DNA of 64,000 bases from Candidatus Aldehydirespirator sp. (lineage in GTDB: Bacteria > Actinomycetota > Acidimicrobiia > Acidimicrobiales > Aldehydirespiratoraceae): positions 1,674,882 through 1,738,881 of the forward strand of contig OZ244832.1 in NCBI GenBank assembly GCA_965220485.1, given 5' to 3'. Positions 44,506 to 62,000 of the stretch are shown here, piece after piece; position 1 is the first letter of the stretch, and every line of letters begins with the position of its first letter. The position numbers and the translations under genes are program-made. The notes beneath the pieces are model-generated. The model did not search any database. It worked only from the letters and a program-made list of their open reading frames with translations, and was not told the DNA's origin.

Positions 44506-44528
44506 GCCTTGATGCTACGCACAACCCC

Positions 44529-44701
44529 GAGACGCCAGCCGGGGCACCAGGTTCGCAGCGAGACGCCAGCCGGGGCACCAGGTTCGCAGCGAGACGCCAG
44601 CCGGGGCACCAGGTTCGCAGCGAGACGCCAGCCGGGGCACCAGGTTCGCAGCGAGCCGCCAGCCGGGGCACCAGGTTCGCAGCGAGCCGCCAGCCGGGGG
44701 G
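44529..44701. repeat. 31-bp tandem array (5.5 copies) in a divergent intergenic region
   Basis: GAG(A/C)CGCCAGCCGGGGCACCAGGTTCGCAGC occurs at 44529, 44560, 44591, 44622 and 44653, with a partial copy at 44684. The units are contiguous with no spacers. Confidence 0.9.
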
Positions 44702-44786
44702 TGGCGCCGGGGCAAGGAATGGCGCCGCTCGCGGCGCCAGGACAGGACCCGCCGGCCGGGACAGCGCGAGCGCTAGCGTTGGGATC

Positions 44787-45272: not shown

Positions 45273-45301
45273 CGCCACCGGAGCCGAGAGCTGTAGGAGA
45301 C

Positions 45302-46960
<1,659 letters not shown>

Positions 46961-47040
46961 ACCGCCGGGGGCGGGCCGCCCGCCCCGCGAACTGGCAGCG
47001 CACAAGGCCCAAAACGGACCTCACCGCTGCCAATTCCCGG

Positions 47041-47631
47041 TTAGGAGCGGGCCGATTCCTCCGCCGACGCCGCCACCGGCGCGGCCTCGTCGGCCGCGGT
47101 CCGCCAGTCGAGAACGGGACAGTCGCCCCACAGCCTTTCGAGCTGGTACAGGGCGCGTCGCTCGGCGTCGAAGACGTGAACCACGAACGGTCCGTAGTCG
47201 AGCAGCACCCACTGGCGGTCGTCGGCACCCTCGATGCGCAGCGGCGACGGACCGCCCGCCTCCTTCAACAGCTCCTCCACGCCCTCGGTGATGGCGCGCA
47301 CCTGGCGGGCATTGTTGCCGTGGGTGATAACGAACAGATCGGTGACGACGAGCACGTCGCCGACATCGATCACGACGGTGTCGACGCCATTGCGCTCATC
47401 GGCGGCTGCGGCCGCGGCCATGGCCCAGCGCCGCTCATCGGCGCCGTCGACGTCGCGAGGCGGACCCGGGGCGCGGGACGGACCCGGGGCGCGGGACGAA
47501 CCCGGGGCGCGGGCCGGACCCGGGGCGCGGGGCGAACCGGTCGCGTGGGGCGGACCCGGGGCGCGGGGCGGATCGGCGGATCGGGCCGCGCCGTCAGGCC
47601 CGGCAAGACCAGCCGCGTGGGCCCCCGTCAC
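47041..47631 (-). CDS. rsfS: Ribosome silencing factor RsfS (Iojap-like) with repeat-encoded Pro/Arg/Ala/Gly N-terminal extension
   Basis: Core VVIDVGDVLVVTDLFVITHGNNARQVRAI...WVLLDYGPFVVHVFDAERRALYQLERLW. The GTG at 47631 overlaps the upstream stop (GTGA). A shorter start near the MAAAAAADE segment is possible. Confidence 0.8.
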   Translation of the reverse strand: MTGAHAAGLAGPDGAARSADPPRAPGPPHATGSPRAPGPARAPGSSRAPGPSRAPGPPRDVDGADERRWAMAAAAAADERNGVDTVVIDVGDVLVVTDLFVITHGNNARQVRAITEGVEELLKEAGGPSPLRIEGADDRQWVLLDYGPFVVHVFDAERRALYQLERLWGDCPVLDWRTAADEAAPVAASAEESARS

Positions 47632-48869: not shown

Positions 48870-49468
48870 CGACCGGACCCGTACAGGCCCTTGGACCTCA
48901 CAAGGTCGGCCACCGCCCGGGGGGCGAGCGCCTCGACCGGGCGGCCGTCAGCGAAGCGGGCCCGGACGTCGCACGACGAGATGTCCAGCGCGGGGACCTC
49001 CACCACCACCGCAGGCCAGCCCTCGGGGGGGCGCCCGCCGGACCGTCCCGCCCTCTCCACCACGACCGTGGTGGACAGCTCCCGGAGCTCGGCGGGGCGC
49101 TTCCAGGTGTCGAGCCCCTGGGCGGTGTCCGAACCCACGATGAGCATCAGCTCGGCGCCGGGATGCTGCCAGCGCAGCTCCTGCAGGGTGTCGGCCATGT
49201 AGCTCTCGCCGCCGCGGTCGACCTCGAGGGCGCTCGCCTGCAGCCCTTCGAGACCGCTGACGGCGGCCCGCACCATCTCCAATCGCAGGGGGGCCGGCGT
49301 CACCGGATGCAGCACAGATTTCTGCCACGGATCATTGGCCACGACCAACAGCACCACCGCGAGCCTCAGACGGTGGCGCACCTCCAGTGCCGCCGCGAGG
49401 TGCCCGAAATGCGGCGGATCGAAGGTCCCTCCCAGCACGCCGATGCGGGAGGTGTTCCGTCGCTGCAC
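48866..49468 (-). CDS. nadD: Nicotinate-nucleotide adenylyltransferase NadD
   Basis: IGVLGGTFDPPHFGHL (the (H/T)xGH motif) and the C-terminal ISS motif (LDISSCDVR). Confidence 0.9.
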   Translation of the reverse strand: MQRRNTSRIGVLGGTFDPPHFGHLAAALEVRHRLRLAVVLLVVANDPWQKSVLHPVTPAPLRLEMVRAAVSGLEGLQASALEVDRGGESYMADTLQELRWQHPGAELMLIVGSDTAQGLDTWKRPAELRELSTTVVVERAGRSGGRPPEGWPAVVVEVPALDISSCDVRARFADGRPVEALAPRAVADLVRSKGLYGSGR

Positions 49469-49568
49469 CCTGAAAGTCTATGATCAGGTCAGGCGTTGCG
49501 CCGAGGACGCTGCGAAGGTGCGCGGCAAGGACGTGTGACGTATTTCACAGCCTGCGCCACCGCAGGCC

Positions 49569-49597
49569 TTGACTTGCTGGGAACAAATGCGTAGTCT
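49569..49597 (+). promoter_or_regulatory. Candidate sigma-70-type promoter (-35 TTGACT, 17-bp spacer, -10 TAGTCT) for the sigma factor gene
   Basis: Read directly. Lies ~125 nt upstream of ATG 49724 in a locally less GC-rich stretch. Confidence 0.35.
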
Positions 49598-49723
49598 ATA
49601 TTGGTTCGTCTGGGCTGGAGTAGCGCACTTGGAGGGTGTGCGCCCGGCACCAAGTCTTCCCCCACATAGAAAGCGATAAGGTCGCCCTGCCACCGCGAGC
49701 GGGCCCGGTCAGGTGAGTGAGAC

Positions 49724-50569
49724 ATGAGTGACTCAGTAGGACAGTACCTCAACGAGATCGGTGCAGTGGCCCTGCTCAACGCCCAAGAGGAGCGCGAGCT
49801 GTCACAGGCCATCGAGCGCGGTGTCGAGGCCCGCCTCCGCAAGGAGCAGGGCGAGAAGGGCCGTGAAATTGACAAGGCGATCCGCGAGGCCACCGCGGCC
49901 AAGGACCGCTTCATCCGGGCCAACCTGCGCCTGGTCGTGAGCGTGGCTCGGCGCTATCCCCTTCCCCCGGGCATGGAGTTGCTCGACCTGATCCAGGAGG
50001 GGAACCTGGGCCTCGAGCACGCGGTCGACAAGTTCGACTGGCGCAAGGGCTTCAAGTTCTCGACCTACGCGACTTTCTGGATCCGCCAGTCCATCGGGCG
50101 GGCCCTCGACCAGAAGGCGAGCCTGGTGCGACTGCCCGGCGACAGGTCGGCCAGTCTGCGGGCCGCGCTGCGGCAGGTGTCCGGCGACGGCGACGAGTTG
50201 GATGACGACCATGCCCGGCTGCACCGGCTCACCACGCCGACCTCGCTCGACCGCACCATCGGCGACGACGACAGCAACGAGTTGATCGACCTTCTCCCCG
50301 ACTCCAACCCCGGGCCCGAGCTCGAGGTGATGGCCAAGGCCGAGGAGGAGATGGTGACCGGACTGCTCGACATCCTCGAGCCCCGGGCCAAGTACGCCGT
50401 CGAGCAGCGCTTCGGACTCTCCGACGGCATCAAGCGCTCCTACCGCGAGGTGGGCGAGGAGCTGGGCGTCACCGCCGAGGCGGCTCGGCGTCTGGTGAAG
50501 CGCGCCATCAATGCCGTGCGCGAGCACGCCGAGGAGCTGAGTCTGGCCGAGTCGGTCGACGCGGCCTAA
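49724..50569 (+). CDS. RNA polymerase sigma-70 family factor (group 2-like; regions 2-4, no region 1.1)
   Basis: FIRANLRLVVSVARRY (2.1/2.2), DLIQEGNLGLEHAVDKFD, FSTYATFWIRQSI (2.4), and the region 4 HTH SYREVGEELGVTAEAARRLVKRA. Confidence 0.88.
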   Translation: MSDSVGQYLNEIGAVALLNAQEERELSQAIERGVEARLRKEQGEKGREIDKAIREATAAKDRFIRANLRLVVSVARRYPLPPGMELLDLIQEGNLGLEHAVDKFDWRKGFKFSTYATFWIRQSIGRALDQKASLVRLPGDRSASLRAALRQVSGDGDELDDDHARLHRLTTPTSLDRTIGDDDSNELIDLLPDSNPGPELEVMAKAEEEMVTGLLDILEPRAKYAVEQRFGLSDGIKRSYREVGEELGVTAEAARRLVKRAINAVREHAEELSLAESVDAA

Positions 50570-50575
50570 ATTTCC

Positions 50576-51952
50576 ATGTCCGCCGGAGACCTGACCCTGT
50601 TCGCCGGCGGAAGCGGTTGGTCGCCTTCGTCCTGGAGGGCCAAGCCTGCGCGGCATCAGCCGGCTTGGCCCGACCAGGCCGAACTCGAGCAGGCAACCAA
50701 GTCCCTGCGCGATCTGCCTCCGCTGGTGTTCGCGGGCGAGGCCCGCTCGCTCACCGGCCTGCTGGGCCGGGTCGCCAACGGCGAGGCGTTCCTGCTGCAG
50801 GCGGGCGACTGCGCGGAGTCCTTCGACTCCTCCGCGAACTCGATCCGCGACAAGCTGCGGGTGATCCTGCAGATGGCCATCGTGCTGACCTACTCGGGAG
50901 GCGTGCCCCTGGTGAAGGTGGGCCGTATCGCGGGGCAGTTCGCCAAGCCCCGCTCCAAGCCCACCGAGACCATCGGAGACGTGGAGCTCACGTCGTTCCT
51001 GGGCCACATGGTGAACGACATCGGCTTCAGCGAGGCGGAGCGGCTGCCCGACCCCGGGCGGCTGCTGACCGCGTACCACCGGGCCGCATCCACGCTGAAC
51101 CTGCTGCGGGCCTTCACCCGGGGCGGCTATGCCGACCTGTCGCAGGTGTCGAGCTGGAATAGGGAGTTCGTTGCCACCTCTCCGGCGGGCCAGCGCTACT
51201 CGCGGATGGCCGACGAGATCGACCGGGCCCTCCGTTTCATGACCTCGTGCGGCGTGACCACCGCCAACACCCCGCAACTCCACGAAGTGGAGCTCTACAC
51301 CAGCCACGAGGCGCTAGTGCTGGACTACGAGGAGGCGATGACCCGCGAGGACTCGATCACCGGGGACACCTACGACTGCTCCGCCCACATGCTGTGGGTA
51401 GGCGAGCGCACCCGGCAGATGGACGGCGCCCACGTTGAGTTCCTGAGGGGCGTGCACAACCCGCTCGGCTGCAAGATCGGGCCCACCGCCACCGCGGACG
51501 AGGTGGTCGCCTTGTGCGAGTTGCTCAACCCGCAGCGGGTGCCGGGCCGGCTCACCTTCATCACCAGGATGGGCGCCGACGACGTGGAGACACTGCTGCC
51601 CCCGCTGCTGCGGGCGGTGCGGGACTCTCAGCACCCCGTGGCGTGGGCGTGCGACCCGATGCACGGCAACACCTACACCTCGGAGTCGGGGCGCAAGACC
51701 CGGCATTTCGATGACGTGCTGGCCGAGATCAGCGGATTCTTCGCCGCCCACACCTCCTGCGGGACCTGGCCCGGCGGCGTTCATGTGGAGCTCACCGGAG
51801 ACCCCGTCACCGAGTGCGTGGGCGGTGCCGACGACATCAGCCACGAGGATCTGGAACAGGCCTTCGAGACGCTGTGCGATCCCCGCCTCAACGGCCGCCA
51901 GTCGGTGGATCTCGCCTTCCGAGTGGCCGAGATGCTCTCCGACCGCAGCTGA
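50576..51952 (+). CDS. Class II 3-deoxy-7-phosphoheptulonate (DAHP) synthase
   Basis: WRAKPARHQPAWPD...PPLVFAGEARSL...LLQAGDCAESF and the C-terminal ...WACDPMHGNT...GGVHVELTG are class II (AroA-II) hallmarks. Confidence 0.9.
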   Translation: MSAGDLTLFAGGSGWSPSSWRAKPARHQPAWPDQAELEQATKSLRDLPPLVFAGEARSLTGLLGRVANGEAFLLQAGDCAESFDSSANSIRDKLRVILQMAIVLTYSGGVPLVKVGRIAGQFAKPRSKPTETIGDVELTSFLGHMVNDIGFSEAERLPDPGRLLTAYHRAASTLNLLRAFTRGGYADLSQVSSWNREFVATSPAGQRYSRMADEIDRALRFMTSCGVTTANTPQLHEVELYTSHEALVLDYEEAMTREDSITGDTYDCSAHMLWVGERTRQMDGAHVEFLRGVHNPLGCKIGPTATADEVVALCELLNPQRVPGRLTFITRMGADDVETLLPPLLRAVRDSQHPVAWACDPMHGNTYTSESGRKTRHFDDVLAEISGFFAAHTSCGTWPGGVHVELTGDPVTECVGGADDISHEDLEQAFETLCDPRLNGRQSVDLAFRVAEMLSDRS

Positions 51953-52207
51953 GGATCATCAGCGGACAGACCTGTCTCTGGACGGCCTCTCCACGGAGCC
52001 GATGGCAGCCCCCGCGCCCCGCCCCGGAGGGTGCGCCTGACCACCGGCCCTGCCGCGGGCCGCCGCTCCAGCGCCGTCCCCTGTCCGTCATGTCGGCGGG
52101 GACCCGAAAGCCGGAGCCGAGCTGCCCGGCCTAAACGAAGCACGAACAGATCGTCCCCGTGCGGGTCTGTCCTACGTGGCAGGATACGACTTGAGACTGC
52201 CGCCGCA

Positions 52208-54937
52208 ATGGAGGTATCCGTGGACAGCGCTTGGAAGTGGCCCGGCTCCAGATGGTGGCGCGTCGACCTTCACGCGCACTCACCGGCGTCCCACGATTTC
52301 CAGACTGGCGTGACTGCGGCTGCCGATGCAGCTCACCGGTGGATGGAGTCCGCACGCGACGCCGGCCTCCACGCGGTCGCCGTGACAGACCACAATTCGT
52401 CGCGATTCGTGCCCGAGCTACAGCGGGCCGCCTCCGAGGTGGCCAATGCCCCGGTGCTCTTCCCCGGCGTAGAGCTCACCACCGGTGACGGATCCCATCT
52501 CCTGCTCATCGTCGACCCGGGCGCCGGAGAGGAGAACATCGATGATCTGTTGTCCCGAATGGAGATTCCGGTGGAAGAGCGCGGCCAGACGAACGCGCGC
52601 ACGTCTCAGAGCGTCGAGGCGATCCTGGAGCGCTGCGATGATCAGACGCTTGTAATCGCGGCGCACGTCAATCAACCAGCTGGGCTGCTGCAACATACGG
52701 GCCAGCAACGGATTGCAGAACTCCGGCATCCGAGACTTGCAGCAGCGGAGATTCACCCCGATACCGACTTCGACGAGTCGTGGCTCGACGGCAGCAAGGC
52801 CGAGATAGGGCGGGAGATCCCTCAGATATGGGCTTCGGACAGCCACTGCTTCGACGACCTCGGCACGCGCTTCACGTGGGTGAAGATGACAGAACCCACA
52901 CTCGAAGGATTGCGACTGGCCCTCTCTGATGGCGACGATTCTCTCAAGCCTGCCCGGAGGGAGGACTCGGATAATCCCAATGCACATGCCGAGATGGCTA
53001 TAGAGAAGATCACGGTATACGACACCAAGCACATAGGTCGCCGGTCGCCGACCGAAGTCCGCTTCAATCCATGGATGAATGCCATCATCGGGGGACGCGG
53101 CACAGGAAAGTCGACTCTGCTCGACCTGTTCCGAAAGTCGATGAGACGGGACGGGGAGCTTGATAAAGCGGGAATAGGTCAGGAAGGATCGCTGCGGGGT
53201 CTCTTCGACAGCCGCATGCGTGTGCCGACAACTCGGTCCGACAGTGGTTTGCTGACCGGGGAGTCCCGCGTGGAGGTGGTCTATCGGAAGGATGGTGACA
53301 GGTTTCTTCTCTCGTGGAGCCAGGATGGGAGCGCTCAGCCGATCGCTCGACTGAGCAATGGTGACTCAAGCGCGGAGAAGGGCAATATCTCGGAACGATT
53401 CCCCGTGCGGATTTACAGCCAGAAGCAGCTGTTCGCCCTGGCCCAGAATCCGGATGCGCTCCTCGCGGTTCTTGACGACGCCCAAGAAGTTGACGGTGCC
53501 GACACCAGCCGAGAATTGCAGCGGTTGGAGGGCCGCTATCTCGCTTTGCGTGCGGAGGCTCGACAGGCTCTAACGCACGCGCGCGAGCTGCCGGATCGAG
53601 AGGCGTCGCTGGTCGATGTCCAGCGGAAGCTGGATCTCCTCCAGCAGGGCGGCCATGCAGAGATTCTCCGGCTCTATCGAAATCGTCGCCGGACTGATGG
53701 CATGTGGAAGGCGGTGCAGGCAGCATCTGAGCAAGGACTGGACGCCGTCGGTGAAGCGGTCGGCGAGTTGGCAGTGTCTGACTTGAATCTGCCAACGGAC
53801 GGCGACGATGCCACACAAGCGCTTCAACGTGCACACCAATCGCTGCATCAACTGATCGAGGGCTTCAGGAGCGAGTTGCTCGACAGCATCGAAGTGGTCC
53901 GCAGACGACTGGCTGAGGTGTTGCGAGGCGCGGACGCCAGCCATTGGGACGCCGCCGTTGATGCCAGCGAGGAAGCGTACCAGAACACGGTCTCCCAACT
54001 CGAAGAAGAGGGCATCGCAGACCCGGAGGAGTATGGAGAGCTAGTTGAGAGAGCGAGAAGGCTGGAAGCAGAGATAGAGAATCTCGGAACGGGTGCACGG
54101 AGAGCGCGCCGGCTTGAGCGGGAGGCCGACGCTGTGCTGGCCGAGTACCGGGAGGCACGGAGCCGGCTCAGCGTCAAACGGCAGGACTTCGCGGGTCGCG
54201 CTTCGGGCGTCACGCTCCGTGTCGAGGTAAGCAAGTTTGCCAAACACTCGGATCTAGCCGAGAGCCTCGAGCACATCCTCGGAATCGAAGCATTCGGTGA
54301 GGATCGGAAGTTGATCGCCGAGCGAATCAGACCGCAGGAAGACGGCGAGTGGGACTGGGGATCTCTGGATGGCGTCGTTGCCGAGATGCGGGCGTTTCAG
54401 TCGGGGGAGACCGACTCATGGGATACCAGAGATGCTCGGTTCGCGCCCCGGCTGAGGGGTCTCCCCGCGGAGCGGATCGATCGCTTGGCTCTCTACCTTC
54501 CCCAAGACATTCTTCAGGTTGACTTCCAGAGCGGAGATTTCGCTCCATGGCGACCAATAGCGCAGGGATCGCCGGGGCAGCAGACTGCGGCTCTCTTGGC
54601 GTTCGTGCTGGGTTTCGGGTCTGAACCCATCGTGTTGGACCAGCCCGAGGACGACTTGGACAGCACGCTGATATATGAACTGCTGGTTAGACGCTTCCGC
54701 GAAACCAAGCCAGCGAGGCAGCTGATCCTCGTGACTCACAACCCGAATATCGTGGTACACGGCGACGCGGAATACGTCCTCTCGCTGGAAGTCAAGCATT
54801 CGCTAACCGTTGTCAGTCGCGAGGGCGGGCTTCAGGAACAGGATGTGAGAGAAGAGATCTGTCGTGTGATGGAGGGCGGCAGGGAAGCGTTCGAGAGCCG
54901 CTACCACCGGATCATGCCGTTGAAGGGAGTCAAGTGA
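52208..54937 (+). CDS. PHP-domain phosphoesterase fused to an SMC/ABC-type coiled-coil ATPase (Ppl-like defence-type protein)
   Basis: PHP motifs RVDLHAHSPAS, VAVTDHN, GVELTT and AAHVN. Walker A IIGGRGTGKSTL. A long E/R/L/A-rich helical region. Signature-like GSPGQQ, Walker B VLDQPEDDLD, and VTHNPN. ATG 52208 chosen inside track ORF 52031..54937. Confidence 0.8.
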   Translation: MEVSVDSAWKWPGSRWWRVDLHAHSPASHDFQTGVTAAADAAHRWMESARDAGLHAVAVTDHNSSRFVPELQRAASEVANAPVLFPGVELTTGDGSHLLLIVDPGAGEENIDDLLSRMEIPVEERGQTNARTSQSVEAILERCDDQTLVIAAHVNQPAGLLQHTGQQRIAELRHPRLAAAEIHPDTDFDESWLDGSKAEIGREIPQIWASDSHCFDDLGTRFTWVKMTEPTLEGLRLALSDGDDSLKPARREDSDNPNAHAEMAIEKITVYDTKHIGRRSPTEVRFNPWMNAIIGGRGTGKSTLLDLFRKSMRRDGELDKAGIGQEGSLRGLFDSRMRVPTTRSDSGLLTGESRVEVVYRKDGDRFLLSWSQDGSAQPIARLSNGDSSAEKGNISERFPVRIYSQKQLFALAQNPDALLAVLDDAQEVDGADTSRELQRLEGRYLALRAEARQALTHARELPDREASLVDVQRKLDLLQQGGHAEILRLYRNRRRTDGMWKAVQAASEQGLDAVGEAVGELAVSDLNLPTDGDDATQALQRAHQSLHQLIEGFRSELLDSIEVVRRRLAEVLRGADASHWDAAVDASEEAYQNTVSQLEEEGIADPEEYGELVERARRLEAEIENLGTGARRARRLEREADAVLAEYREARSRLSVKRQDFAGRASGVTLRVEVSKFAKHSDLAESLEHILGIEAFGEDRKLIAERIRPQEDGEWDWGSLDGVVAEMRAFQSGETDSWDTRDARFAPRLRGLPAERIDRLALYLPQDILQVDFQSGDFAPWRPIAQGSPGQQTAALLAFVLGFGSEPIVLDQPEDDLDSTLIYELLVRRFRETKPARQLILVTHNPNIVVHGDAEYVLSLEVKHSLTVVSREGGLQEQDVREEICRVMEGGREAFESRYHRIMPLKGVK

Positions 54938-56175
54938 CAACGCCGAGCGATGAGCTATCAAGGCGGATTCGACTCGGCGAAGACTCCACTCTGGAACTGA
55001 AGCGAATACTGCTGGCCGGAAAGCGGGTGACTGGGCCAGACCGGGGTCGTTTCGCAGACGAGATGGCGAGCATGGCCAACGGCTCGGGCGGGACCGTCGT
55101 GTTGGGGGTCGATGACGAGACCCACGACGTGCTAGGCATCCCGCTTGACTCTCTGGATGTCGTCGAAACTTGGGTGCGCGAGATTTGCAACGACTCGATT
55201 ACTCCACCGCTGGACGCGACGATAAGGAAGTTGGAGATCCGGGGATCGTCCGGCGACCTCCTTGCTGTCATCCGTGTCGATGTCCCGCGAAGCCTGTTCG
55301 TCCACAAGAGCCCCGGCGGATACTTCAGAAGAATAGGCAGCTCCAAGCGGGAGATGTCACCGGAGTTCCTCGCGAGGATGTTTCAAGAGCGCAGTCAGAG
55401 CAGGCTGATCCGCTTCGACGAGTCCATCGTTCCGGGCACAGAGCCAACGGACCTCGATGAGCGGCTCATCGCACGGTTCTTGCCGCGGCCGCAGATACCA
55501 GCAGGCACCTATCTGCACAAGCTTCGGATCGCCGCCGAGGACGACGACGGCATCCTCCGTTTGACAGTCGCTGGTGTCCTCATGTGTGCTCGCGAACCCG
55601 CCAGGTGGTTGCCGCACGCGCAGATCCAAGCGGTCAGCTACGCCGGCGAGCGCAGCGATGTGAACTATCAGATCGACGCTCGGAACGTGAGCGGGCCGCT
55701 GGATTCCCAAGTAGTGGAAGCACTGCATTTCGTGAAACGCAATATGAGGATGAGTGCCAGGAAAGCCGTGGCCCGCGCCGAGCGTCCCCAGTTCAGTGAG
55801 AGAGCTGTATTCGAGGCCCTGGTCAATGCCGTCGCACACAGGGACTACTCCATGGCCGGCGCACGGGTCAGGCTCCACATGTTCCACGATCGTCTCGAGT
55901 TGTACGTGCCCGGCGACCTGGCGAACACACTGACGACCGACAGTATTCACCTGCGCCAGTACAGCCGCAATGAACTGATCGTCTCCCTGCTCGCCCGTTG
56001 CGAGCTGCCGGGATCAGCCGAGCTTGACCGGACTCGCATGATGGAACGACGAGGGGACGGGGTTCCGATCATTCTCAACGAGAGCCGTGAGTTGTCGGGA
56101 CGCCTGCCGGAGTACAGCCTCGTCGATGACAGCGAACTTCGGTTGATCATCTGGGGGGCTGCTGCCAACGACTAG
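54934..56175 (+). CDS. Schlafen/AlbA_2 (divergent AAA) domain + HATPase_c_4 C-terminal domain protein
   Basis: N-terminal GEDSTLELKR...FADEMASMANGSGGTVVLGVDD (AlbA_2 pattern). C-terminal EALVNAVAHRDYS...RVRLHMFHDRLELYVPG (HATPase_c_4 pattern). GTG 54934 overlaps the upstream TGA (GTGA) and has an AAGGGAG SD. Confidence 0.75.
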   Translation: MTTPSDELSRRIRLGEDSTLELKRILLAGKRVTGPDRGRFADEMASMANGSGGTVVLGVDDETHDVLGIPLDSLDVVETWVREICNDSITPPLDATIRKLEIRGSSGDLLAVIRVDVPRSLFVHKSPGGYFRRIGSSKREMSPEFLARMFQERSQSRLIRFDESIVPGTEPTDLDERLIARFLPRPQIPAGTYLHKLRIAAEDDDGILRLTVAGVLMCAREPARWLPHAQIQAVSYAGERSDVNYQIDARNVSGPLDSQVVEALHFVKRNMRMSARKAVARAERPQFSERAVFEALVNAVAHRDYSMAGARVRLHMFHDRLELYVPGDLANTLTTDSIHLRQYSRNELIVSLLARCELPGSAELDRTRMMERRGDGVPIILNESRELSGRLPEYSLVDDSELRLIIWGAAAND

Positions 56176-56297
56176 GCGGCGTGCGGCGACAGTGAGCGCG
56201 GTCACGGAAGAATGTCGTGGGTCCCGCAGCGGTGCCACCGGATGTGGACCATTCCGGGCCGCATAGGAGAACCAAGCGAGAATAGAGGTGATGCGCC

Positions 56298-56633
56298 ATG
56301 CCAAATGCGAATGACTACCGGGGGCTGCACAACGAGGTGCTCGCCCGACCCGGTGCCGCCGAGCGTCTTGCGACCCTGCGCAGCGAGACCCTCGCCGAGA
56401 TCGGTCTCCACGCTTTGCGTCGGACCCTTTACCGTTCTCAGGCCGACCTGGCTGCGGAACTCGGTATCAGCCAGTCCGCGGTCTCACAACTCGAGCGGGG
56501 TGATGATGTGAAGGTGTCCACTCTCCGCAGCTACGTGCAGGGGCTGGGGGCGCGTCTGCGGATTGTGGCCGTCTTCGACGACGGCGAGGACGAGACGGCC
56601 ATACCGATACGCATCGGCCCGGAAGTGGCGTAG
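56298..56633 (+). CDS. XRE-family helix-turn-helix protein
   Basis: LRRTLYRSQADLAAELGISQSAVSQLERGDDVKVSTLRSYVQGLG is a canonical Cro/C1-type HTH. Confidence 0.8.
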   Translation: MPNANDYRGLHNEVLARPGAAERLATLRSETLAEIGLHALRRTLYRSQADLAAELGISQSAVSQLERGDDVKVSTLRSYVQGLGARLRIVAVFDDGEDETAIPIRIGPEVA

Positions 56634-56879: not shown

Positions 56880-57548
56880 CCGGCTTCAGCGAAGCCGAAC
56901 GGCTGCCCGACCCGCGCCGCTTGCTGACCGCGTACCACCGGGCCGCGTCCACCCTCAACCTGCTGAGAGCGTTCACCCGGGGCGGCTACGCCGACCTGTC
57001 ACGGGTGGCCAGCTGGAACCGGGAGTTCGTGGCCACCTCGCCCGCGGGCCGGCGCTACGCCCGCATAGCCGAGGAGATCGACCGGGCTCTGGAGCCTCCA
57101 TGGGTGGAGGAAGACGAAGACGGGCGCTACGCCCGCATAGCCGAGGAGATCGACCGGGCCCTGCGGTTCATGACGGCGTGCGGAGTGACCACCGCCAACA
57201 CCCCGCAACTGCACGAGGTCGAGTTCTACACCAGCCACGAGGCTCTGGTCCTAGACTACGAAGCGGCGCTCACCCGCGAGAACTCGACCACCGGCGACTG
57301 GTACGACTGCTCGGCCCACATGCTGTGGATCGGCGAGCACACCCGCCAGCTCGACGGCGCCCACGTGGAGTTCCTTCGGGGGGTGTGCAACCCGCTGGGC
57401 TGCAAGATCGGTCCCACCGCCACCGCCGACGAGGTGGTCGCACTGTGCGAGCTGCTCAACCCGCAGCGCGTTCCCGGCCGGCTCACGTTCATCACCGGGA
57501 TGGGCGCCGGAAACGTGGAGACGCTGTTGCCGCCGCTGCTGCGGGCCG
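56880..57548 (+). pseudogene. Internal fragment of a second, diverged class II DAHP synthase gene (lacks both ends; carries a 72-bp internal duplication)
   Basis: GFSEAERLPDP..LLTAYHRAASTLNLLRAFTRGGYADLS...TLLPPLLRA is collinear with residues of the intact gene at about 51022-51618. The RYARIAEEIDRAL segment is duplicated (57051-57087 and 57122-57158). Homology stops abruptly on both sides. Confidence 0.8.
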
Positions 57549-57719: not shown

Positions 57720-58988
57720 GTGGGAACGCTCGTCGAGAGATTCTGGGACGAACACGACCGAGTCTCGCGGCCCGCGACCGACAACGACCCGCACCGGCAG
57801 GTGTTCCGCGCCTTCGTGCCGCATCCCATCGCGGGATGGACGCCGACGTTCGGCGAGGCCACCTGGAGGCTCGTCGACGCCGCCGAGAGCGCAGTGCGGG
57901 CACTGGGGGCCGACCACCCTTCGGGTTCCGCGGCGCCGGCAGAGTGGCTGCTCCGGCGGGCCGAGAGCGCGGCGTCGAGCACAATCGAGGGAGTCCGCCC
58001 GTCAGCACGCCGGCTGGCCCGGGCCGAGGCTCGGCTGTCTCTGTGGCAGGAGCAGCCACGCCCCCAGGACCTCGAGGCTCTCCGCAACATCTCAGCCACC
58101 GAAGTCGCCCTCCGTATCGGCTCCACCCCCGGTCCCGTGACGATGCAGGACGTCTGCGCCATACACCGGGCGCTGATGGGTGACGAAGATCCCATCGCCG
58201 GCCAGATCCGTACCGCCCAGAACTGGATCGGCTCGGGGTTCAGGTCGCCCCCCCTGGACGCGCAGTATGTTCCCCCGCCACCGGACGCGGTGCAGGACCT
58301 GATGAACGACCTGGTGGAGTGCATCAACGCGCCGGTGTCGGGACCGCTGGTGCACGCCGCCATCGTGCACGCCCAGTTCGAGGCGATCCATCCCTTCGCC
58401 GACGGCAACGGGCGAACCGGACGGGCTCTGATCCACCTGATGCTGCGCCGCCGCGGGCTGACCGGCTCGGGCACGCTTCCCGTCAGCTCGTCGCTGGCCC
58501 GGCGCAGAGACGACTACATCCGAGCGCTCAACAGCGCCTGCACGGTGTGCGGCGCCGACGATCCGCTGCGGCCGGCCGCGGCCACAGAGTGGATCGGGCT
58601 TCTGTGCAGCGCCGCCGTCGAGGCCTCCTACTTCGCCCGTCGCATCATCGACCACGTGGAGTCGATCCTCCGGCTGTGGCTGCGCACGATGCGGTCCATG
58701 GGGGTGCGGCGCTCCAACGCCGCGGTGCGTCTCATCGAGTTGCTCCCGTCGCGCCCCGTGCTCAACGCCGACGGCGCGGCCGAGATGCTGGACGCCGATC
58801 CCCGGACCGCCCGCCGCAGCCTCGAATTGCTCACCACCGCGGGGATACTCGTCCAGCGCAGCGCCGGGAGACGAAACCGCGTATTCGAGGCGGCCGCCAT
58901 CACGGATGCCTTCTCTGCGCTCGCGTCGATCAACATCGGCGACAGCGACATACACCTGCCGCCCCTGCCCGATCCCGACGATGGCTGA
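57720..58988 (+). CDS. Fic/DOC family protein (class with N-terminal inhibitory helix)
   Basis: Fic motif HPFADGNGRTGRAL. Upstream SSTIEG matches the (S/T)xxxE(G/N) auto-inhibition motif. AGGAGA SD. An AT-rich promoter-like patch lies at 57611-57655. Confidence 0.88.
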   Translation: MGTLVERFWDEHDRVSRPATDNDPHRQVFRAFVPHPIAGWTPTFGEATWRLVDAAESAVRALGADHPSGSAAPAEWLLRRAESAASSTIEGVRPSARRLARAEARLSLWQEQPRPQDLEALRNISATEVALRIGSTPGPVTMQDVCAIHRALMGDEDPIAGQIRTAQNWIGSGFRSPPLDAQYVPPPPDAVQDLMNDLVECINAPVSGPLVHAAIVHAQFEAIHPFADGNGRTGRALIHLMLRRRGLTGSGTLPVSSSLARRRDDYIRALNSACTVCGADDPLRPAAATEWIGLLCSAAVEASYFARRIIDHVESILRLWLRTMRSMGVRRSNAAVRLIELLPSRPVLNADGAAEMLDADPRTARRSLELLTTAGILVQRSAGRRNRVFEAAAITDAFSALASINIGDSDIHLPPLPDPDDG

Positions 58989-59042: not shown

Positions 59043-62000
59043 CTATGAGGCGTGGTTACCGAGGCGGGTGAGGACTCGGCTCAAGAATGCGGCCATTTGG
59101 GCTCTGGTGACGTGTCGTGGGCCGCAGTACAGCGGTGGGTCGGTGTTGCAACCGGTTGTGATGTCGGCGGCGCTGATGGCCTCGACAGCATTGTAGGCGT
59201 AGTGGTCGGTGTCGATGTCTTCGAAGGTGGGGGCGTCGTTGTCGGCATCGGGCAGTTTGAAGGCTCGTTGCAGGAACAGCGCCATCTGTGACCTGGTGAC
59301 GGGATCATCGGGGCAGTAGTCGGTGCCGCGTGGGTTGCATCCGACGCTGATGCCGAGTCTGGCGATGCGTTCGATGTAGGGCGCGTACCAGGCTTCTAGG
59401 TCCACATCGTCGAAGCGTCCGGCGAGCTTGTCAACGGGGTCGAGGTCTAGGGCTCTGACCAGGAACACGGCCATTTGGGCCCTGGTGATGGGCTGGGTGG
59501 GCCGGTAGCTGCCGTCGGGGTAGCCGGTGGTGACTCCGAGTCTGGCGATGTGCTCGACGTAGGGCGCGTGCCAGTCGTCTGGGGCGACGTCGCTGAACGA
59601 CACCGGCTCGGGCTCGGGTTCGGGCGCGCCTCCGCCGCCGCCTCCTCCTCCGCTGCGCCGACGGGGCGGCGCGACGACGGCTTTGGGGGTGGTGCGGTTC
59701 GAGGGTGCGGAGGCGGCTTTGAGCCCGTCGGATCTCTCAGCGGTGACCGTGAAGGTGTAGACGCGGTCGTTGACGAGCCCGGTGACGGTGCAGGTCGTGT
59801 CGGCCGCGGCGGCGGTGCAGGTGCGCTGTCCGGGCGATGAGGTCGCGGCGTAGCCGGTGATGGTGATCGTGCTGGCGCTGGTGTCGGGAGCGGTCCAGGT
59901 GACGGTGACCTCTCCGGCGCCGGGCGGGTCGGCGGGTTCGGCGCGCACTGCGGTGGGGGCGGTGACCCACACCTCGGCGGTGGGCTGCGACGGCTCGGAG
60001 GCGCCGCGGGCGTTGCGGGCGGTGACAGTGAGAGTGTGCGCCCCGTTGGCGAGGCCCTCGATGCGGCACCATCTCTGCGCGGCGGAGGCGGTGCAGGTGC
60101 GGCCCGAGGGCGCGGACGTGGCGGTGTAGCCGACGATGGCGGCGCCGCCGTCGCTGGCGGGCGCGGCCCATTGCACCAGCGCCCAGCCACCGCCGGGGGT
60201 GGCCTGCGTGATCGCGGGCACCCCCGGCGCGGCAGCCGTCACCGACGCGGGACGTGACGGCTGCGACGCGGTCGATGGTCCCGCGTTGTTGTTGGCGATC
60301 ACAATGAAGGTGTAGGCGACTCCCGGGGCGAGGCCTGTGATGGTGCATGAGGTCTCGGTGGCCGCCGCGGTGCATCGGCCCGGGCCGGGCGAGGCGCTCA
60401 CCTCGTAGCTTGTGACCGGGTCCGGTGCCTGCAGCCGGGCCGCGGCCCGGTCCTCGCGCCCGGCGTATACGAGGACGCCGCTGCCGGGGGGCGCGCCGGC
60501 GGATGCTGTGGGCACCGTCCATGCGATGGTGGCGGTGTCGTCCTCAACGGTTGCGGTGACGCCGCTGGGAGCGTCGGGCGCGCCGATCGGGGCCTGCGGG
60601 GACACGGACGCGGCGGGGCTGGAAGCCGGCGAGACAAGCCCGTAGGAGTTCTCCGCAACCACGGTGATCTCATAGGTGATGCCGTTGGTGAGCCCGGTGA
60701 TGGTGCAGGCTGTCCCGCCGGCCGCGGTGCATGTGTGAGGGTCCTCGGTCTGACCGACCGCGGCTGCGGTGGCGGTGTAGCCGACGATGATGGCGTCGTC
60801 AGCGCCGGCGTCTGCTGGCGCGGCCCAAGACACGCGGGCGTCGCCGTTGCCGCCGGTCGCTCTCACGTTGTGGGGCGCGCCCGGCGCGTCGGCCGGCACG
60901 ACGGCGTTCACCGGCGAAGACGCCGGCGACGTCCTGCGCGCGCCGTTCTCGGCTGTGACCGTCACCTCATAGGCGCGGCCCCTGGCCAAACCGGTGATGG
61001 TGCAGTCCGTCGCGCTGAACGCGGCACAGGCCTGCCCGCCCGGCTCTGCGGTGGCCTCATAGCTCACGATGCCGGGTCCTCCGGTGTCGGCGGGCTCGGT
61101 CCACGACACCTCGAGGGACCCGCCGCCGACGGACGTCGCAGTGACGCCGCCAGGCGCGTCGGGCGCGCCCGCGGGCGTCACCTCGAGCGACGGTGCCGAC
61201 GCCGCAGACGCGCCGGCCTCGTTGCCGGCGGTCACCGTGAACATGTAGGAGGCACCGTTGGTCAGCCCGGTCACCGTGCACGCGGTGGCGGCGGCGTCAT
61301 CGGTGGTGCAGCTGTGCCCGCCGGGATCAGAGACGGCCTCATAGCCGCTGATCGCCGCGCCTCCGTCGTAGCCCGGAGCCCGCCACTCAATTCGCGACTG
61401 GCCGTCCTCGTACTCCGTGGCGGTCACCGACACCGGCGCGTCCGGCACCGTGCGCGGCGTCACCGGTCCCGCGGGCGCCGACGGCGGCGACGGCCCGGCG
61501 GCGTTGCTCGCAGTCACGGTCACCGTGTACGCCGTGCCGTTGTCGAGCCCGGTGATCGTGCAGGTCGTAGCGGCCGGGTCCGACGCGGTGCAGGTGAGCC
61601 CGCCGGGATCGGCGACCGCCTCATAGCCGGTGATCTCCGAGCCCCCGTCAGAAACAGGCACCCGCCACGACACCACCACCGACTCGTGTTCCGGCTCGAC
61701 GCTCACACGGCCCGGCGTGGCCGGCACAGCCTTGGGCACCACCGCCGCCGACGCCGCCGACGCCGCCGAGGACCCCGCCACGTTGCTCGCCGTCACCGTG
61801 AACGTGTAGGCGGTGCCGTTGGCCAGCCCGGTGACCGTGCAAGAAGCCACCGCCGCGTCGGCGCTGGTGCAGGACCGGCCCCCCGGAGACGCCGTCGCCC
61901 GATAGCCGGTCACATCAGAGCCCCCGTCGAAGCCAGGCGCCTGCCATGACACCAGCGCCAGCGCGTTGCCCGGAACCGCCGACACCGCCGTCGGAGCGTC

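What the first reader, a model, noticed from the sequence alone, without database searches (positions are those of the whole stretch)
52208..56175. Ppl-like PHP-phosphoesterase/SMC-type ATPase translationally coupled to a Schlafen/AlbA_2-HATPase_c_4 protein: candidate two-gene defence module
Seen in sequence: gene 1 (909 aa) has PHP metal-ligand motifs (DLHAHS, TDHN, GVE, AAHV). It also has a Rad50/SMC-like split ABC ATPase: Walker A GGRGTGKST, several hundred residues of Glu/Arg/Leu/Ala-rich helix, SPGQQ, Walker B VLDQPEDDLD, and THN. Gene 2 starts with a GTG inside the GTGA that ends gene 1 (54934-54937) and has its own SD, so the two are almost certainly co-expressed. Gene 2 combines an AlbA_2/Schlafen-type domain with an HATPase_c_4 tail. 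Established knowledge: a single-gene PHP+ATPase system named ppl was reported among the antiviral systems of Gao et al. 2020, and Schlafen-type domains recur in defence islands. Inference: I do not know of this PHP-SMC ATPase having been described with an obligate Schlafen-like partner. The context supports an immune role: an island inserted after a housekeeping gene, with XRE and Fic neighbours and visibly weaker GC3 bias than the flanks.
Basis: partly seen in the sequence, partly recalled or inferred. Interest (0 to 1): 0.8.

Follow-up and report, generated by a model that had tools for sequence, protein, structure and literature searches.

The report
Known trlF–trlG operon, likely defence
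This horizontally acquired two-gene operon, a Ppl-like DNA nuclease/ATPase followed by a Schlafen-type RNase/ATPase, is a new member of the already published "temperature restriction locus" trlF–trlG pair and is very probably an anti-phage module, though neither gene strictly needs the other.

Summary
Gene 1 (52208–54937, 909 aa) is a full-length PHP nuclease plus ABC/SMC-like ATPase. Gene 2 (54934–56175, 413 aa) is a Schlafen (AlbA_2) plus GHKL (HATPase_c_4) protein. Gene 2 starts inside the GTGA that ends gene 1.

The novelty claim fails. NCBIfam places gene 1 in the TrlF family, named after the Photorhabdus operon trlR–trlF–trlG (Hapeshi 2020). That TrlG has the same two domains.

In 80 loci from many phyla, 63 of 78 evaluable TrlF genes have a full-length TrlG starting −13 to +22 nt from the TrlF stop. 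Catalytic motifs of both proteins are almost invariant. The pairing is not obligate:
- Solo TrlF sits on 464 plasmids.
- Only 22 of 63 TrlG-like genes have TrlF upstream.

The context is strongly defence-like. The pair is nested inside BREX type 3 and Hma operons elsewhere. Here it is a low-GC3 insertion after DAHP synthase, near a SoFic-like gene.

Most likely mechanism (inferred): TrlF senses or degrades DNA as Ppl does, and TrlG is an ATP-controlled tRNase that arrests growth.

Verdict: new member of a known kind, moderate interest.

The parts
52208..54937 (+). Gene 1, TrlF-family protein (909 aa; possibly 905 aa from the GTG at 52220): N-terminal PHP phosphoesterase plus an ABC/SMC-like ATPase split by a long insertion
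   Evidence: ORF. PADLOC Ppl 1e-113 over the full length. NCBIfam TrlF_fam_ATP 506 bits, above the 350 cut-off. More than 1200 homologues. Alternative start.
52244..52942 (+). PHP nuclease domain of gene 1 (about aa 13-245) with metal ligands D20/H22/H24, D61/H62, E89, H153, D211/H213
   Evidence: Pfam PHP 8e-4, below its gathering score. NF038032 metallohydrolase 1e-8. The ligands are conserved in 76-79 of 82 homologues.
53090..53116 (+). Walker A motif GGRGTGKST (aa 295-303)
   Evidence: Read from the sequence. G295, G300, K301 and S302 are conserved in 81 of 82 homologues.
53480..54412 (+). Long Glu/Arg/Leu/Ala-rich insertion between the two ATPase lobes (about aa 425-735). It is a putative coiled coil and has no Cys-x-x-Cys hook.
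   Evidence: Only weak RecN, SMC and LmuB matches over aa 263-664 and inspection of the sequence. No structure was obtained, so the coiled-coil assignment is inferred.
54569..54742 (+). C-terminal ATPase lobe: signature SPGQQ (aa 788-792), Walker B LDQPEDDLD (aa 810-818), H-loop THN (aa 843-845)
   Evidence: Pfam AAA_21 6e-13 over aa 729-849. The motif residues are conserved in 81-82 of 82 homologues.
54923..54937 (+). Translational-coupling junction: Shine-Dalgarno AAGGGAG (54923-54929), gene 2 GTG (54934-54936) overlapping the gene 1 TGA (54935-54937)
   Evidence: Sequence. In the 63 paired loci, the offset from the TrlF stop to the first g2-aligned residue is -13 to +22 nt.
54934..56175 (+). 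Gene 2, TrlG-type 'Schlatpase' (413 aa): Schlafen/AlbA_2 nuclease domain plus GHKL-type HATPase_c_4 domain, with no C-terminal HTH
   Evidence: Pfam hits. 27% identity (E = 3e-30) to Yersinia pYR3 TrlG and 55% to the B. thailandensis plasmid partner. PADLOC matches only the pAgo-associated SLFN/GHKL models.
54979..55359 (+). Schlafen/AlbA_2 domain (aa 16-142). It begins with the catalytic Ex4ExK motif EDSTLELK (aa 16-23, nt 54979-55002).
   Evidence: PF04326 1.6e-14. E16 is conserved in 66/66, E21 in 65/66 and K23 in 66/66 partners. The motif is as defined in PMC13056530.
55810..56148 (+). GHKL (Bergerat-fold) ATPase-like domain: N-box E294-x3-N298-A299-x2-H302-R303-D304-Y305, and G374-x-G376
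   Evidence: PF13749 5.8e-16 over aa 309-405. The N-box residues E294/N298/A299/H302-Y305 and the two glycines G374 and G376 are invariant in 66 of 66 partners; D375 varies.
56298..56633 (+). XRE-type HTH gene (111 aa), probably cargo of the same insertion because its GC3 is 0.76. It is not conserved with the pair elsewhere and is not a TrlR homologue.
   Evidence: Pfam HTH_3 5e-9. No homologue in the 80 loci. No TrlR match. GC3.
56881..57547 (+). Internal fragment (aa 150-347) of a second DAHP synthase gene, about 86% identical in nucleotides to the intact copy at 50576-51952, with a 41-nt duplication (57051-57091 and 57123-57163). It is a recombination scar marking the far side of the insertion.
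   Evidence: blastn and tblastn. Repeats. Native-like GC3 of 0.905.
50576..51952 (+). Class II DAHP synthase, the housekeeping gene after which the pair is inserted (flank, not part of the module)
   Evidence: Pfam 4e-201. Synteny with L001 and L002.
57720..58988 (+). SoFic-like Fic-domain gene: a second, independent candidate defence gene next to the insertion
   Evidence: Pfam Fic 2.8e-22. PADLOC SoFic 1.1e-68 over positions 8-358 of 361. GC3 of 0.87 is close to native, and the gene is absent from L001 and L002.

Best explanation
The locus is a horizontally acquired trlF-trlG operon, a member of the family first described as the Photorhabdus 'temperature restriction locus'. It most likely acts as a two-enzyme anti-phage or anti-mobile-element module.

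Shown:
- Gene 1 is a TrlF-family, Ppl-like protein with an intact PHP metal site and an intact ABC ATPase site.
- Gene 2 is a Schlafen plus GHKL protein with an intact Ex4ExK nuclease motif and an intact GHKL N-box.
- The two genes are translationally coupled.
- The pair travels as a unit across phyla and sits in defence contexts.

Inferred:
- TrlF works like E. coli Ppl. Ppl is a 3'-5' ssDNA exonuclease whose PHP and NTPase sites are inhibited by NTPs and which responds to free 3'-OH DNA ends.
- TrlG is the growth-arresting effector. It is an ATP-dependent oligomerising Schlafen tRNase, like the SLFN-GHKL module of SLFN-pAgo.
- In Photorhabdus, growth arrest at 36 C was relieved only by trlG mutations and never by trlF mutations. 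TrlG toxicity therefore does not need TrlF. TrlF is more likely a sensor or restraint, or a parallel DNA-degrading arm, than an obligatory activator.
For: Family membership of gene 1: NF045780 at 506 bits against a cut-off of 350, and PADLOC Ppl at 1e-113.

Gene 2 domains are above the Pfam cut-offs.

Catalytic residues of both proteins are conserved in 65-66 of 66 TrlG and 76-82 of 82 TrlF sequences.

Pairing: in 63 of 78 evaluable loci from Chloroflexota, Latescibacterota, Gemmatimonadota, Acidobacteriota, Desulfobacterota, Proteobacteria, Spirochaetes, Planctomycetota and Acidimicrobiia, a full-length TrlG starts -13 to +22 nt from the TrlF stop. In the window's own clade the figure is 31 of 33.

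The TrlF and TrlG distance matrices correlate (Mantel r = 0.86; 0 of 999 permutations reached this value).

Defence context:
- The pair is nested in BrxC-PglXI-[TrlF-TrlG]-(BrxHII)-PglZ operons (L033, L034, L042, L059).
- It is nested in or beside Hma clusters: HmaA-HmaB-[TrlF-TrlG]-HmaC in L015, L023 and L037; HmaB-[TrlF-TrlG]-HmaC in L017 and L031; HmaA-[TrlF-TrlG]-HmaB in L009.
- Solo relatives lie next to type I and type II restriction-modification genes, serine recombinases and plasmid genes.

In the window:
- GC3 is 0.70-0.76 against 0.89-0.92 in the flanks.
- Synteny with Ca. Aldehydirespirator genomes ends at the gene 2 stop.
- Duplicated DAHP-synthase fragments flank the insertion.
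- A SoFic-like gene lies next door.

Literature:
- TRL operon phenotype, with TrlG mutations only (PMC7554251).
- Ppl mechanism (PMC12904381).
- Bacterial Schlafens as phage-activated tRNases, with the HisKinase-type fusion the commonest architecture (PMC13056530).
- ATP-driven tetramerisation of the SLFN-GHKL module enabling tRNA cleavage (bioRxiv 10.64898/2026.05.29.728809).
Against: No phenotype exists for this locus or for any TrlFG pair against phage. The only experimental phenotype is temperature-dependent growth arrest.

Both genes also occur alone:
- Solo TrlF in 13 of 78 loci, on 464 plasmids and in 7 viral contigs.
- TrlG-like genes without TrlF in 38 of 63 loci, plus 3 with TrlF elsewhere in the locus or only as a remnant.
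Functional interdependence is therefore unproven. Co-divergence can result from linkage alone.

No TrlF-TrlG fusion was found among the top 150 representatives.

The two Enterobacterales pSlfn-HisKinase systems tested in PMC13056530 were not among those that protected.

No structure or complex model could be obtained. The AlphaFold2 model of gene 2 had a pLDDT of 49.

The TrlR regulator of the founding operon is absent here.
Confidence: 0.6

Rival explanations
1. Two autonomous single-gene defence systems, a Ppl-like nuclease/ATPase and a stand-alone Schlatpase, are merely linked in a compact cassette and act independently.
For: Ppl is reported as a single-gene system (PMC12904381). Solo TrlF is common: 13 of 78 loci, 464 plasmids and 7 viral contigs. 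TrlG-like genes at 43-69% identity follow SNF2 helicases, DNA methylases, UvrD or unrelated genes instead of TrlF in 38 of 63 loci, with 3 more having TrlF elsewhere in the locus or only as a remnant. No fusion proteins were found. In Photorhabdus, TrlG toxicity did not require TrlF.
Against: Order, strand and spacing are fixed (-13 to +22 nt, often overlapping codons) in all 63 pairs across phyla. This is tighter than expected for neighbours that merely share an island. The pair moves as one unit into the same slot of BREX-3 and Hma operons. Divergence of the two proteins is correlated, r = 0.86.
Confidence: 0.25
2. A physiological growth-control or toxin-antitoxin-like stress module with no immune role.
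For: The only experimental data show growth arrest above about 35 C. The arrest depends on trlG, and the operon is induced on temperature up-shift (PMC7554251).
Against: Distribution is patchy and horizontally transferred across many phyla. The pair is nested in BREX, Hma and restriction-modification operons and is carried on plasmids. Both protein families have experimentally supported antiviral relatives. Temperature-dependent toxicity is also what autoimmunity of an abortive-infection effector would look like.
Confidence: 0.1
3. A housekeeping DNA-repair pair: a Rad50/SbcC-like ATPase-nuclease with a 'RecG-like helicase', as automatic annotations suggest.
For: There are weak matches to RecN, Rad50 and SMC models. 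The Pfam description of HATPase_c_4 reads 'putative ATP-dependent DNA helicase recG C-terminal'.
Against: Scores are far below the family cut-offs: RecN 38 against 408, Rad50 21 against 700. Gene 2 has no helicase domain. The Photorhabdus paper already notes that recG is a misnomer. There is no zinc hook. The pair is foreign in GC3 and has variable flanks.
Confidence: 0.03

Closest known systems
TRL operon (trlR-trlF-trlG) of Photorhabdus laumondii, Hapeshi et al. 2020, Front Microbiol 11:548800 (PMC7554251); NCBIfam NF045780 'TrlF family AAA-like ATPase'
   Same: The gene order is the same, trlF then trlG, with overlapping or abutting reading frames. TrlF is a PHP ('histidinol phosphatase') plus ATPase protein, and gene 1 passes the TrlF model cut-off. 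TrlG has AlbA_2 plus HATPase_c_4 at the same relative positions. Gene 2 aligns with the TrlG of Yersinia pYR3 over 366 residues, E = 3e-30.
   Different: The relationship is distant: gene 2 is 27% identical to pYR3 TrlG, and gene 1 is 23-42% identical in patches. There is no TrlR homologue. An unrelated XRE gene lies downstream instead. The host is an Acidimicrobiia-like actinobacterium rather than a gammaproteobacterium. The pYR3 TrlG has Q in place of the second catalytic Glu, whereas gene 2 has the canonical Ex4ExK. The founding paper did not propose phage defence.
Ppl, the single-gene PHP plus ATPase anti-phage system (Gao et al. 2020; NCBIfam NF042955; PADLOC PDLC02208)
   Same: The architecture is collinear over the full length: PADLOC Ppl 1e-113 over residues 13-903, matching model positions 4-893 of 894. 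The PHP and NTPase motifs are the same. PADLOC would call this gene 'ppl'.
   Different: It falls below the Ppl equivalog cut-off (469 against 1000 bits) and is placed by NCBIfam in the sister TrlF family. Here it is translationally coupled to a Schlafen-GHKL gene, whereas Ppl is described as acting alone.
Schlatpase / pSlfn-HisKinase proteins, and the SLFN-GHKL module of SLFN-pAgo (PMC13056530; bioRxiv 10.64898/2026.05.29.728809)
   Same: It has PF04326 plus PF13749 and the Ex4(E/D)xK motif, with no extra domains, which is the majority architecture. PADLOC matches the middle and C-terminal part of gene 2 (aa 194-396) to its pAgo and Argonaute-associated (Aga_SIR2) models.
   Different: There is no Argonaute, NACHT, Ig-like or HTH sensor domain in cis. 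Any sensing would have to come from TrlF or from the protein itself. Neither paper mentions a PHP-ATPase partner.
PARIS (AriA ABC ATPase plus AriB Toprim tRNA nuclease)
   Same: The logic is analogous: an ABC ATPase of the AAA_21/OLD-like kind is encoded just upstream of a tRNA-targeting nuclease effector. The C-terminal lobe of gene 1 hits AriA models (1e-11) and AriA structures.
   Different: The effector is Schlafen rather than Toprim. The ATPase carries its own PHP nuclease and a long insertion. The similarity to AriA is limited to generic ABC motifs. This is an analogy only, not membership.
Rad50/SbcC, RecN and Lamassu LmuB SMC-like ATPases
   Same: The ABC ATPase head is split by a long helical insertion. 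There are weak N-terminal matches to Rad50 and weak RecN and LmuB hits.
   Different: All scores are far below the family cut-offs. No zinc hook is present. The nuclease is fused (PHP) rather than being a separate Mre11/SbcD subunit.

Membership tests
TrlF family (NCBIfam NF045780) | Full-length HMM score at or above the curated cut-off of 350 bits | tested here: met
   506.3 bits, E = 2.7e-151, residues 13-902 against model positions 2-943 of 944.
TrlF family (NCBIfam NF045780) | N-terminal PHP metal-binding residues and C-terminal ABC-type NTPase motifs intact | tested here: met
   All motifs are present and conserved in 76-82 of 82 homologues.
TRL operon (Hapeshi 2020) | trlG (AlbA_2 plus HATPase_c_4) immediately downstream of trlF on the same strand | tested here: met
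   GTGA overlap. Pfam domains of gene 2. The same arrangement occurs in pYR3 and the B. thailandensis plasmid and in 63 of 78 loci.
TRL operon (Hapeshi 2020) | Small regulator trlR (about 79 aa) upstream of trlF | tested here: not met
   No tblastn match to the pYR3 or B. thailandensis upstream small proteins. The 255-nt upstream spacer holds no conserved ORF. No recurrent small neighbour was found in the 80 loci.
TRL operon (Hapeshi 2020) | TrlG-dependent growth arrest at elevated temperature | not testable with these tools
   This is an experimental phenotype.
Ppl (NCBIfam NF042955 equivalog; Gao 2020) | HMM score at or above the curated cut-off of 1000 bits | tested here: not met
   468.7 bits. 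Ten partnerless relatives also score 342-627 bits.
Ppl (PADLOC PDLC02208) | Match to the PADLOC Ppl profile over the full length | tested here: met
   E = 1.1e-113, residues 13-903 against model positions 4-893 of 894. The PADLOC model is therefore broader than the NCBIfam equivalog.
Ppl (Gao 2020) | Single gene sufficient for defence; 3'-5' ssDNA exonuclease inhibited by NTPs | not testable with these tools
   This is biochemistry and phage assays, known only from the literature.
Prokaryotic Schlafen nuclease (pSlfn) | AlbA_2/Schlafen domain with the catalytic Ex4(E/D)xK motif | tested here: met
   PF04326 at 54.9 bits against a cut-off of 25.3. E16-x4-E21-x-K23 is conserved in 65-66 of 66 partners. 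The motif definition comes from PMC13056530.
Schlatpase supradomain (SLFN plus GHKL) | PF13749 GHKL-type domain C-terminal to the Schlafen domain, with an ATP-binding N-box | tested here: met
   PF13749 at 58.7 bits against a cut-off of 26. E294, N298, H302, R303, D304, Y305 and G374-x-G376 are invariant.
Schlatpase supradomain (SLFN plus GHKL) | ATP-driven tetramerisation and tRNA cleavage | not testable with these tools
   The AlphaFold2 model was too poor to use, pLDDT 49. The mechanism is known only for RzAgo.
Rad50/SMC/RecN | Family HMM above cut-off; zinc hook or hinge in the coiled coil | tested here: not met
   Rad50 20.7 bits against 700, RecN 38 against 408, SMC 18.5 against 729. There is no CxxC in the insertion.
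PARIS (AriA/AriB) | AriA ATPase plus Toprim AriB effector | tested here: not met
   Only a partial AriA hit, E = 1e-11 over aa 751-849. Gene 2 has no Toprim domain.

The most novel reading that the evidence does not exclude
TrlF-TrlG is a genuine sensor-effector complex of a kind not yet characterised. A Ppl-type PHP exonuclease/ABC ATPase would hold a Schlafen-GHKL tRNase in check. It would release or license the tRNase when it meets phage-generated 3' DNA ends or a collapse of NTP pools. Three things would follow:
- Most genes that current catalogues call single-gene 'ppl' would in fact be the first half of a two-gene system.
- The Photorhabdus 'temperature restriction' phenotype would be autoimmunity of this system.
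- The cassette would serve as a plug-in abortive-infection back-up inside BREX type 3 and Hma operons.
Probability: 0.3. Interest if true: 0.65.

Novelty: new member of a known kind. Interest (0 to 1): 0.42.

Why it matters
The gene pair itself is published as the TRL operon and is recognised by NCBI's TrlF family model, so the locus is not a discovery.

The useful results are these:
- The literature searched here holds only one paper on TrlG, and neither it nor the Schlafen papers read links the 'temperature restriction locus' to Ppl or to phage defence.
- In this cross-phylum sample about four in five TrlF genes carry the Schlafen-GHKL partner. Defence annotation tools report only a single-gene 'ppl'.
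- The cassette sits repeatedly inside BREX type 3 and Hma operons.

This gives a concrete, testable route to two questions. One is how a DNA-end/NTP-sensing nuclease and a tRNA-cleaving Schlafen cooperate. The other is what the Photorhabdus growth-arrest phenotype really is.

Tried and rejected
1. AlphaFold2 model of gene 2 from a 36-sequence alignment. The model had a mean pLDDT of 49 and pTM of 0.36. It was too poor for a fold search, so none was run.

2. Sequence search of the PDB. Gene 1 gave only generic ABC, AriA and Rad50 head matches at E of 2e-4 or worse. Gene 2 gave 3lmm and Schlafen 8 weakly. No Ppl or TrlF structure is available.

3. Search for a TrlR homologue or any conserved small neighbour. 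Negative.

4. Search for TrlF-TrlG fusion proteins among 1.84 billion representatives. None were found in the best 150, whose lengths are 154-659 aa.

5. DNA search of E. coli genomes with a solo TrlF, intended to reach canonical Ppl. It found only near-identical TrlF genes and gave no information on Ppl neighbours.

6. Promoter, terminator, repeat and tRNA scans around the operon. Nothing exceeded the shuffled expectation. There is no tRNA, no integrase and no clean att repeat.

7. Literature searches for 'TrlF'. Early searches returned mostly spectroscopy papers. The relevant paper surfaced only with trlF and trlG together.

8. Rejected annotations: Rad50/SMC membership, the 'RecG helicase' annotation of gene 2, and the 'HTH transcriptional regulator' annotation. 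Gene 2 ends with the GHKL domain.

9. The Mantel correlation is not treated as evidence of physical interaction, because linkage alone would produce it.

Full report
**1. What is in the sequence**

- Gene 1 occupies 52208-54937 (+) and encodes 909 aa from the ATG. A GTG at 52220 follows a GGAGG at 52210-52214. It would give the 905-aa form called in the closest database homologues.
- Gene 2 occupies 54934-56175 (+) and encodes 413 aa. Its GTG lies inside the GTGA that ends gene 1, and AAGGGAG lies 4 nt upstream.
- Pfam by itself supports only the C-terminal ABC lobe of gene 1 (AAA_21, 6e-13). PHP (20.2 bits against 26.4) and SMC_N (21.4 against 40) are sub-threshold.
- Full-length profiles settle the identity of gene 1. 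PADLOC Ppl scores 1.1e-113 over residues 13-903. NCBIfam 'TrlF family AAA-like ATPase' scores 506 bits against a cut-off of 350. The narrow 'anti-phage protein Ppl' equivalog is missed at 469 against 1000 bits.
- Gene 2 has SLFN_AlbA_2 (aa 16-142, 1.6e-14) and HATPase_c_4 (aa 309-405, 5.8e-16), both above their gathering scores.
- Gene 2 matches no NCBIfam family. In PADLOC it matches only the pAgo and Argonaute-associated (Aga_SIR2) models, over aa 194-396.

**2. The pair is already described**

The name TrlF led to Hapeshi et al. 2020 (PMC7554251).
- In Photorhabdus laumondii a three-gene 'temperature restriction locus' stops growth above about 35 C. The genes are trlR (79 aa), trlF ('histidinol phosphatase', meaning PHP) and trlG.
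- TrlG was misannotated as recG. It carries AlbA_2 at residues 14-128 and HATPase_c_4 at residues 298-365.
- All stable temperature-tolerant mutants carried changes in trlG. None carried changes in the much larger trlF. Deleting the whole operon was viable.
- The authors found the operon in Vibrio, Pseudomonas and Yersinia plasmid pYR3. They discussed life-cycle synchronisation and control of IS elements, not phage defence.

In pYR3 the annotated 'TrlF family AAA-like ATPase' overlaps an 'RNA-binding domain-containing protein'. That protein aligns with gene 2 at 27% identity over 366 residues, E = 3e-30.

A Burkholderia thailandensis plasmid carries a closer pair. Its partner is 55% identical to gene 2 and its TrlF 33% identical to gene 1.

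**3. How constant the pairing is**

A genome-collection scan with an alignment of gene 1 homologues returned 80 loci from very diverse phyla. The top hits are Candidatus Aldehydirespirator (Acidimicrobiia) at 89-91% identity.

Seen from the TrlF side:
- A full-length gene 2 homologue lies directly downstream on the same strand in 63 of the 78 loci with enough downstream DNA. The offset from the TrlF stop to the first g2-aligned residue is -13 to +22 nt.
- Two more loci hold truncated remnants (L032, L069). Thirteen have none.
- Within the window's own clade (at least 47% identity) the figure is 31 of 33.
- TrlG is the more conserved partner, with a mean pairwise distance of 0.44 against 0.57.
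- The two distance matrices correlate strongly (Mantel r = 0.86; 0 of 999 permutations reached this value). This shows inheritance as a unit but does not prove physical interaction.
- Solo TrlF genes form small groups nested among paired ones. They still score as TrlF rather than Ppl. This suggests repeated loss of trlG.

Solo TrlF is also frequent elsewhere:
- 464 plasmid records carry it. Most are conjugative Enterobacteriaceae plasmids. The one neighbourhood inspected (p23141-KPC) has it beside a type II restriction-modification pair and serine recombinases.
- 7 IMG/VR contigs carry it.

Seen from the TrlG side:
- In 63 evaluable metagenome loci encoding proteins 43-80% identical to gene 2, only 22 have TrlF directly upstream.
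- The others follow SNF2 helicases, N6/N4 DNA methylases, a UvrD helicase or unrelated genes.
- More distant Schlafen-GHKL proteins (24-27% identity) stand alone in a streptococcal plasmid with phage structural and lysis genes and in a Chlorohelix plasmid.
- No fusion of the two proteins was seen among the best 150 representatives of 7,723 hits.

The association is therefore strong but asymmetric, and it is not obligate.

**4. Enzymatic integrity**

- TrlF (82 sequences): the PHP ligands D20, H22, H24, D61, H62, E89, H153, D211 and H213 are conserved in 76-79. Walker A K301, Q405, the S788-x-G-Q signature, D811, E814, D815 and H844 are conserved in 81-82.
- TrlG (66 sequences): the Schlafen catalytic motif E16-x4-E21-x-K23 is conserved in 65-66. 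The single exception is Q at the second position in pYR3. The GHKL N-box (E294, N298, A299, H302-Y305) and G374-x-G376 are invariant.

Both proteins therefore look like active enzymes, and both activities are under selection.

**5. Context**

In the window:
- The pair follows fumarase, a sigma-70 factor and class II DAHP synthase.
- GC3 falls from 0.89-0.92 in those genes to 0.70 (gene 1), 0.74 (gene 2) and 0.76 (the downstream XRE gene).
- Synteny with two Aldehydirespirator genomes runs from 44000 to 56190 and stops at the gene 2 stop codon.
- In L002 a 233-nt copy of the DAHP synthase 3' end sits immediately after trlG, so the two-gene cassette is bracketed by a direct repeat.
- In the window an internal DAHP synthase fragment (aa 150-347, about 86% nucleotide identity) lies at 56881-57547.
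- No tRNA or integrase is present.
- The XRE gene and the Fic gene are not conserved with the pair.
- The Fic protein is a full-length match to the PADLOC SoFic defence model, 1.1e-68.

Elsewhere:
- The flanks of the pair are highly variable.
- The pair is repeatedly nested, on the same strand, inside larger defence operons:
  - BrxC(DUF6079)-PglXI-[TrlF-TrlG]-(BrxHII)-PglZ in L033, L034, L042 and L059.
  - The same operon with TrlF alone in L040, L044 and L048.
  - Hma clusters: HmaA-HmaB-[TrlF-TrlG]-HmaC in L015, L023 and L037; HmaB-[TrlF-TrlG]-HmaC in L017 and L031; HmaA-[TrlF-TrlG]-HmaB in L009.
- Type I restriction-modification subunits and a DRT reverse transcriptase are also immediate neighbours.

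**6. Mechanism**

What the literature establishes:
- E. coli Ppl is a single-gene 3'-5' ssDNA exonuclease. Its PHP and NTPase sites are inhibited by NTPs, and it responds to 3'-OH ends made by phage homing endonucleases (PMC12904381).
- Bacterial Schlafens are phage-activated tRNases. The fusion to a 'histidine-kinase' (GHKL) domain is the commonest architecture, at 34% (PMC13056530).
[quoted passage not shown] This assembles the active Schlafen nuclease, which cleaves tRNA (bioRxiv 10.64898/2026.05.29.728809).

My inference:
- TrlF contributes Ppl-like DNA-end/NTP sensing and DNA degradation.
- TrlG is the growth-arresting tRNase.

The Photorhabdus genetics add a constraint. About 22 independent suppressors hit the smaller trlG gene and none hit the much larger trlF gene. 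TrlF is therefore not required for TrlG toxicity. It could restrain TrlG, in the way AriA restrains AriB in PARIS. In that case trlF loss would be counter-selected. Alternatively it could act in parallel.

Three of the Photorhabdus suppressor positions (P318, S331, N335) match the residue types of pYR3 TrlG at P316, S329 and N333 with a +2 offset. The last two fall in the conserved S-R-N motif of the GHKL domain (S344-R345-N346 in gene 2). This mapping goes through a proxy sequence and is only suggestive.

No step of the mechanism has been shown for this locus.

**7. Verdict**

The domains, the coupling and the defence-type context hold. Novelty and obligate partnership do not.
- The locus is a new, distant member of the known trlF-trlG (TRL) operon family in an Acidimicrobiia-like genome.
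- Its most interesting aspect is the unexploited link between the TRL operon, Ppl and bacterial Schlafens, together with the nesting of the cassette in BREX-3 and Hma operons.

Noticed in passing
window 56881-57547 (and L002 12016-12248): There is an internal fragment of a second DAHP synthase gene (aa 150-347, about 86% nucleotide identity to the intact gene at 50576-51952), with native-like GC3. It contains a 41-nt near-perfect duplication (57051-57091 and 57123-57163). In the relative L002, a 233-nt copy of the DAHP 3' end directly follows trlG. These look like scars of the recombination that brought in the cassette.
   Followed up: partly
window 57720-58988 (+): The Fic-domain protein is a full-length match to the PADLOC SoFic anti-phage model (1.1e-68). 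Its GC3 is close to native (0.87) and it is absent from the syntenic relatives L001 and L002. The site after DAHP synthase may be a small variable defence hotspot.
   Followed up: partly
window 56298-56633 (+): This XRE/HTH_3 gene has island-like GC3 (0.76). It has no homologue next to any of the 80 TrlF loci and no similarity to TrlR. Its role, as regulator of the pair or of the Fic gene, is unknown.
   Followed up: partly
window 52208-52222: Gene 1 has two candidate starts: the ATG at 52208 (909 aa), and the GTG at 52220 preceded by GGAGG (905 aa, as in the closest database homologues).
   Followed up: yes
L033, L034, L042, L059 (paired); L040, L044, L048 (TrlF only): TrlF, with or without TrlG, sits between the PglXI methylase and BrxHII/PglZ inside BREX type 3-like operons. 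In L034 and L059, TrlG occupies the slot that the BrxHII helicase fills in L044 and L048.
   Followed up: partly
L009, L015, L017, L023, L031, L037: TrlF-TrlG lies inside or beside Hma-type clusters. In L015, L017, L023, L031 and L037 it sits between the DUF1156 methylase (HmaB) and a DUF499 protein (HmaC) that carries an N-terminal HEPN_Swt1 domain in the one checked (L023); an SNF2/NOV_C helicase (HmaA) is also present in L015, L023 and L037. In L009 the pair sits between HmaA and HmaB.
   Followed up: partly
L145, L148, L149, L150; L138, L147, L151; L164: Close TrlG relatives (45-50% identical to gene 2) are tightly coupled downstream of SNF2 helicases, N6/N4 DNA methylases or a UvrD helicase instead of TrlF. 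The Schlafen-GHKL gene behaves as a portable tail-end module of several restriction-modification-like systems.
   Followed up: partly
L082 5995-7143 (Yersinia ruckeri pYR3 TrlG): The second acidic residue of the Schlafen catalytic motif is Gln (E-x4-Q-x-K) in this Photorhabdus-type TrlG. All 65 other partners examined have Glu.
   Followed up: no
L049 7989-10625: This solo TrlF homologue has a degenerate or absent PHP N-terminal region. Only residues 178-873 match the TrlF model. It lies next to an isocitrate/isopropylmalate dehydrogenase gene and may be a decaying copy.
   Followed up: no
L001-L031 record titles: By their record titles, several of the closest loci come from lineages I recall (untested here) as marine sponge symbionts: Ca. 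Synechococcus spongiarum, Ca. Spongiisociaceae, Ca. Palauibacter, Latescibacterota and Caldilineaceae. The Schlatpase preprint also notes Poribacteria examples.
   Followed up: no
window 59043-63992 (-): This very large ORF has at least 1649 aa. It contains many near-identical repeats of about 60 aa (SDGKIVVAG...DTSFDTDGK) followed by fibronectin-type-III-like repeats. The ORF fills the rest of the window on the minus strand.
   Followed up: no
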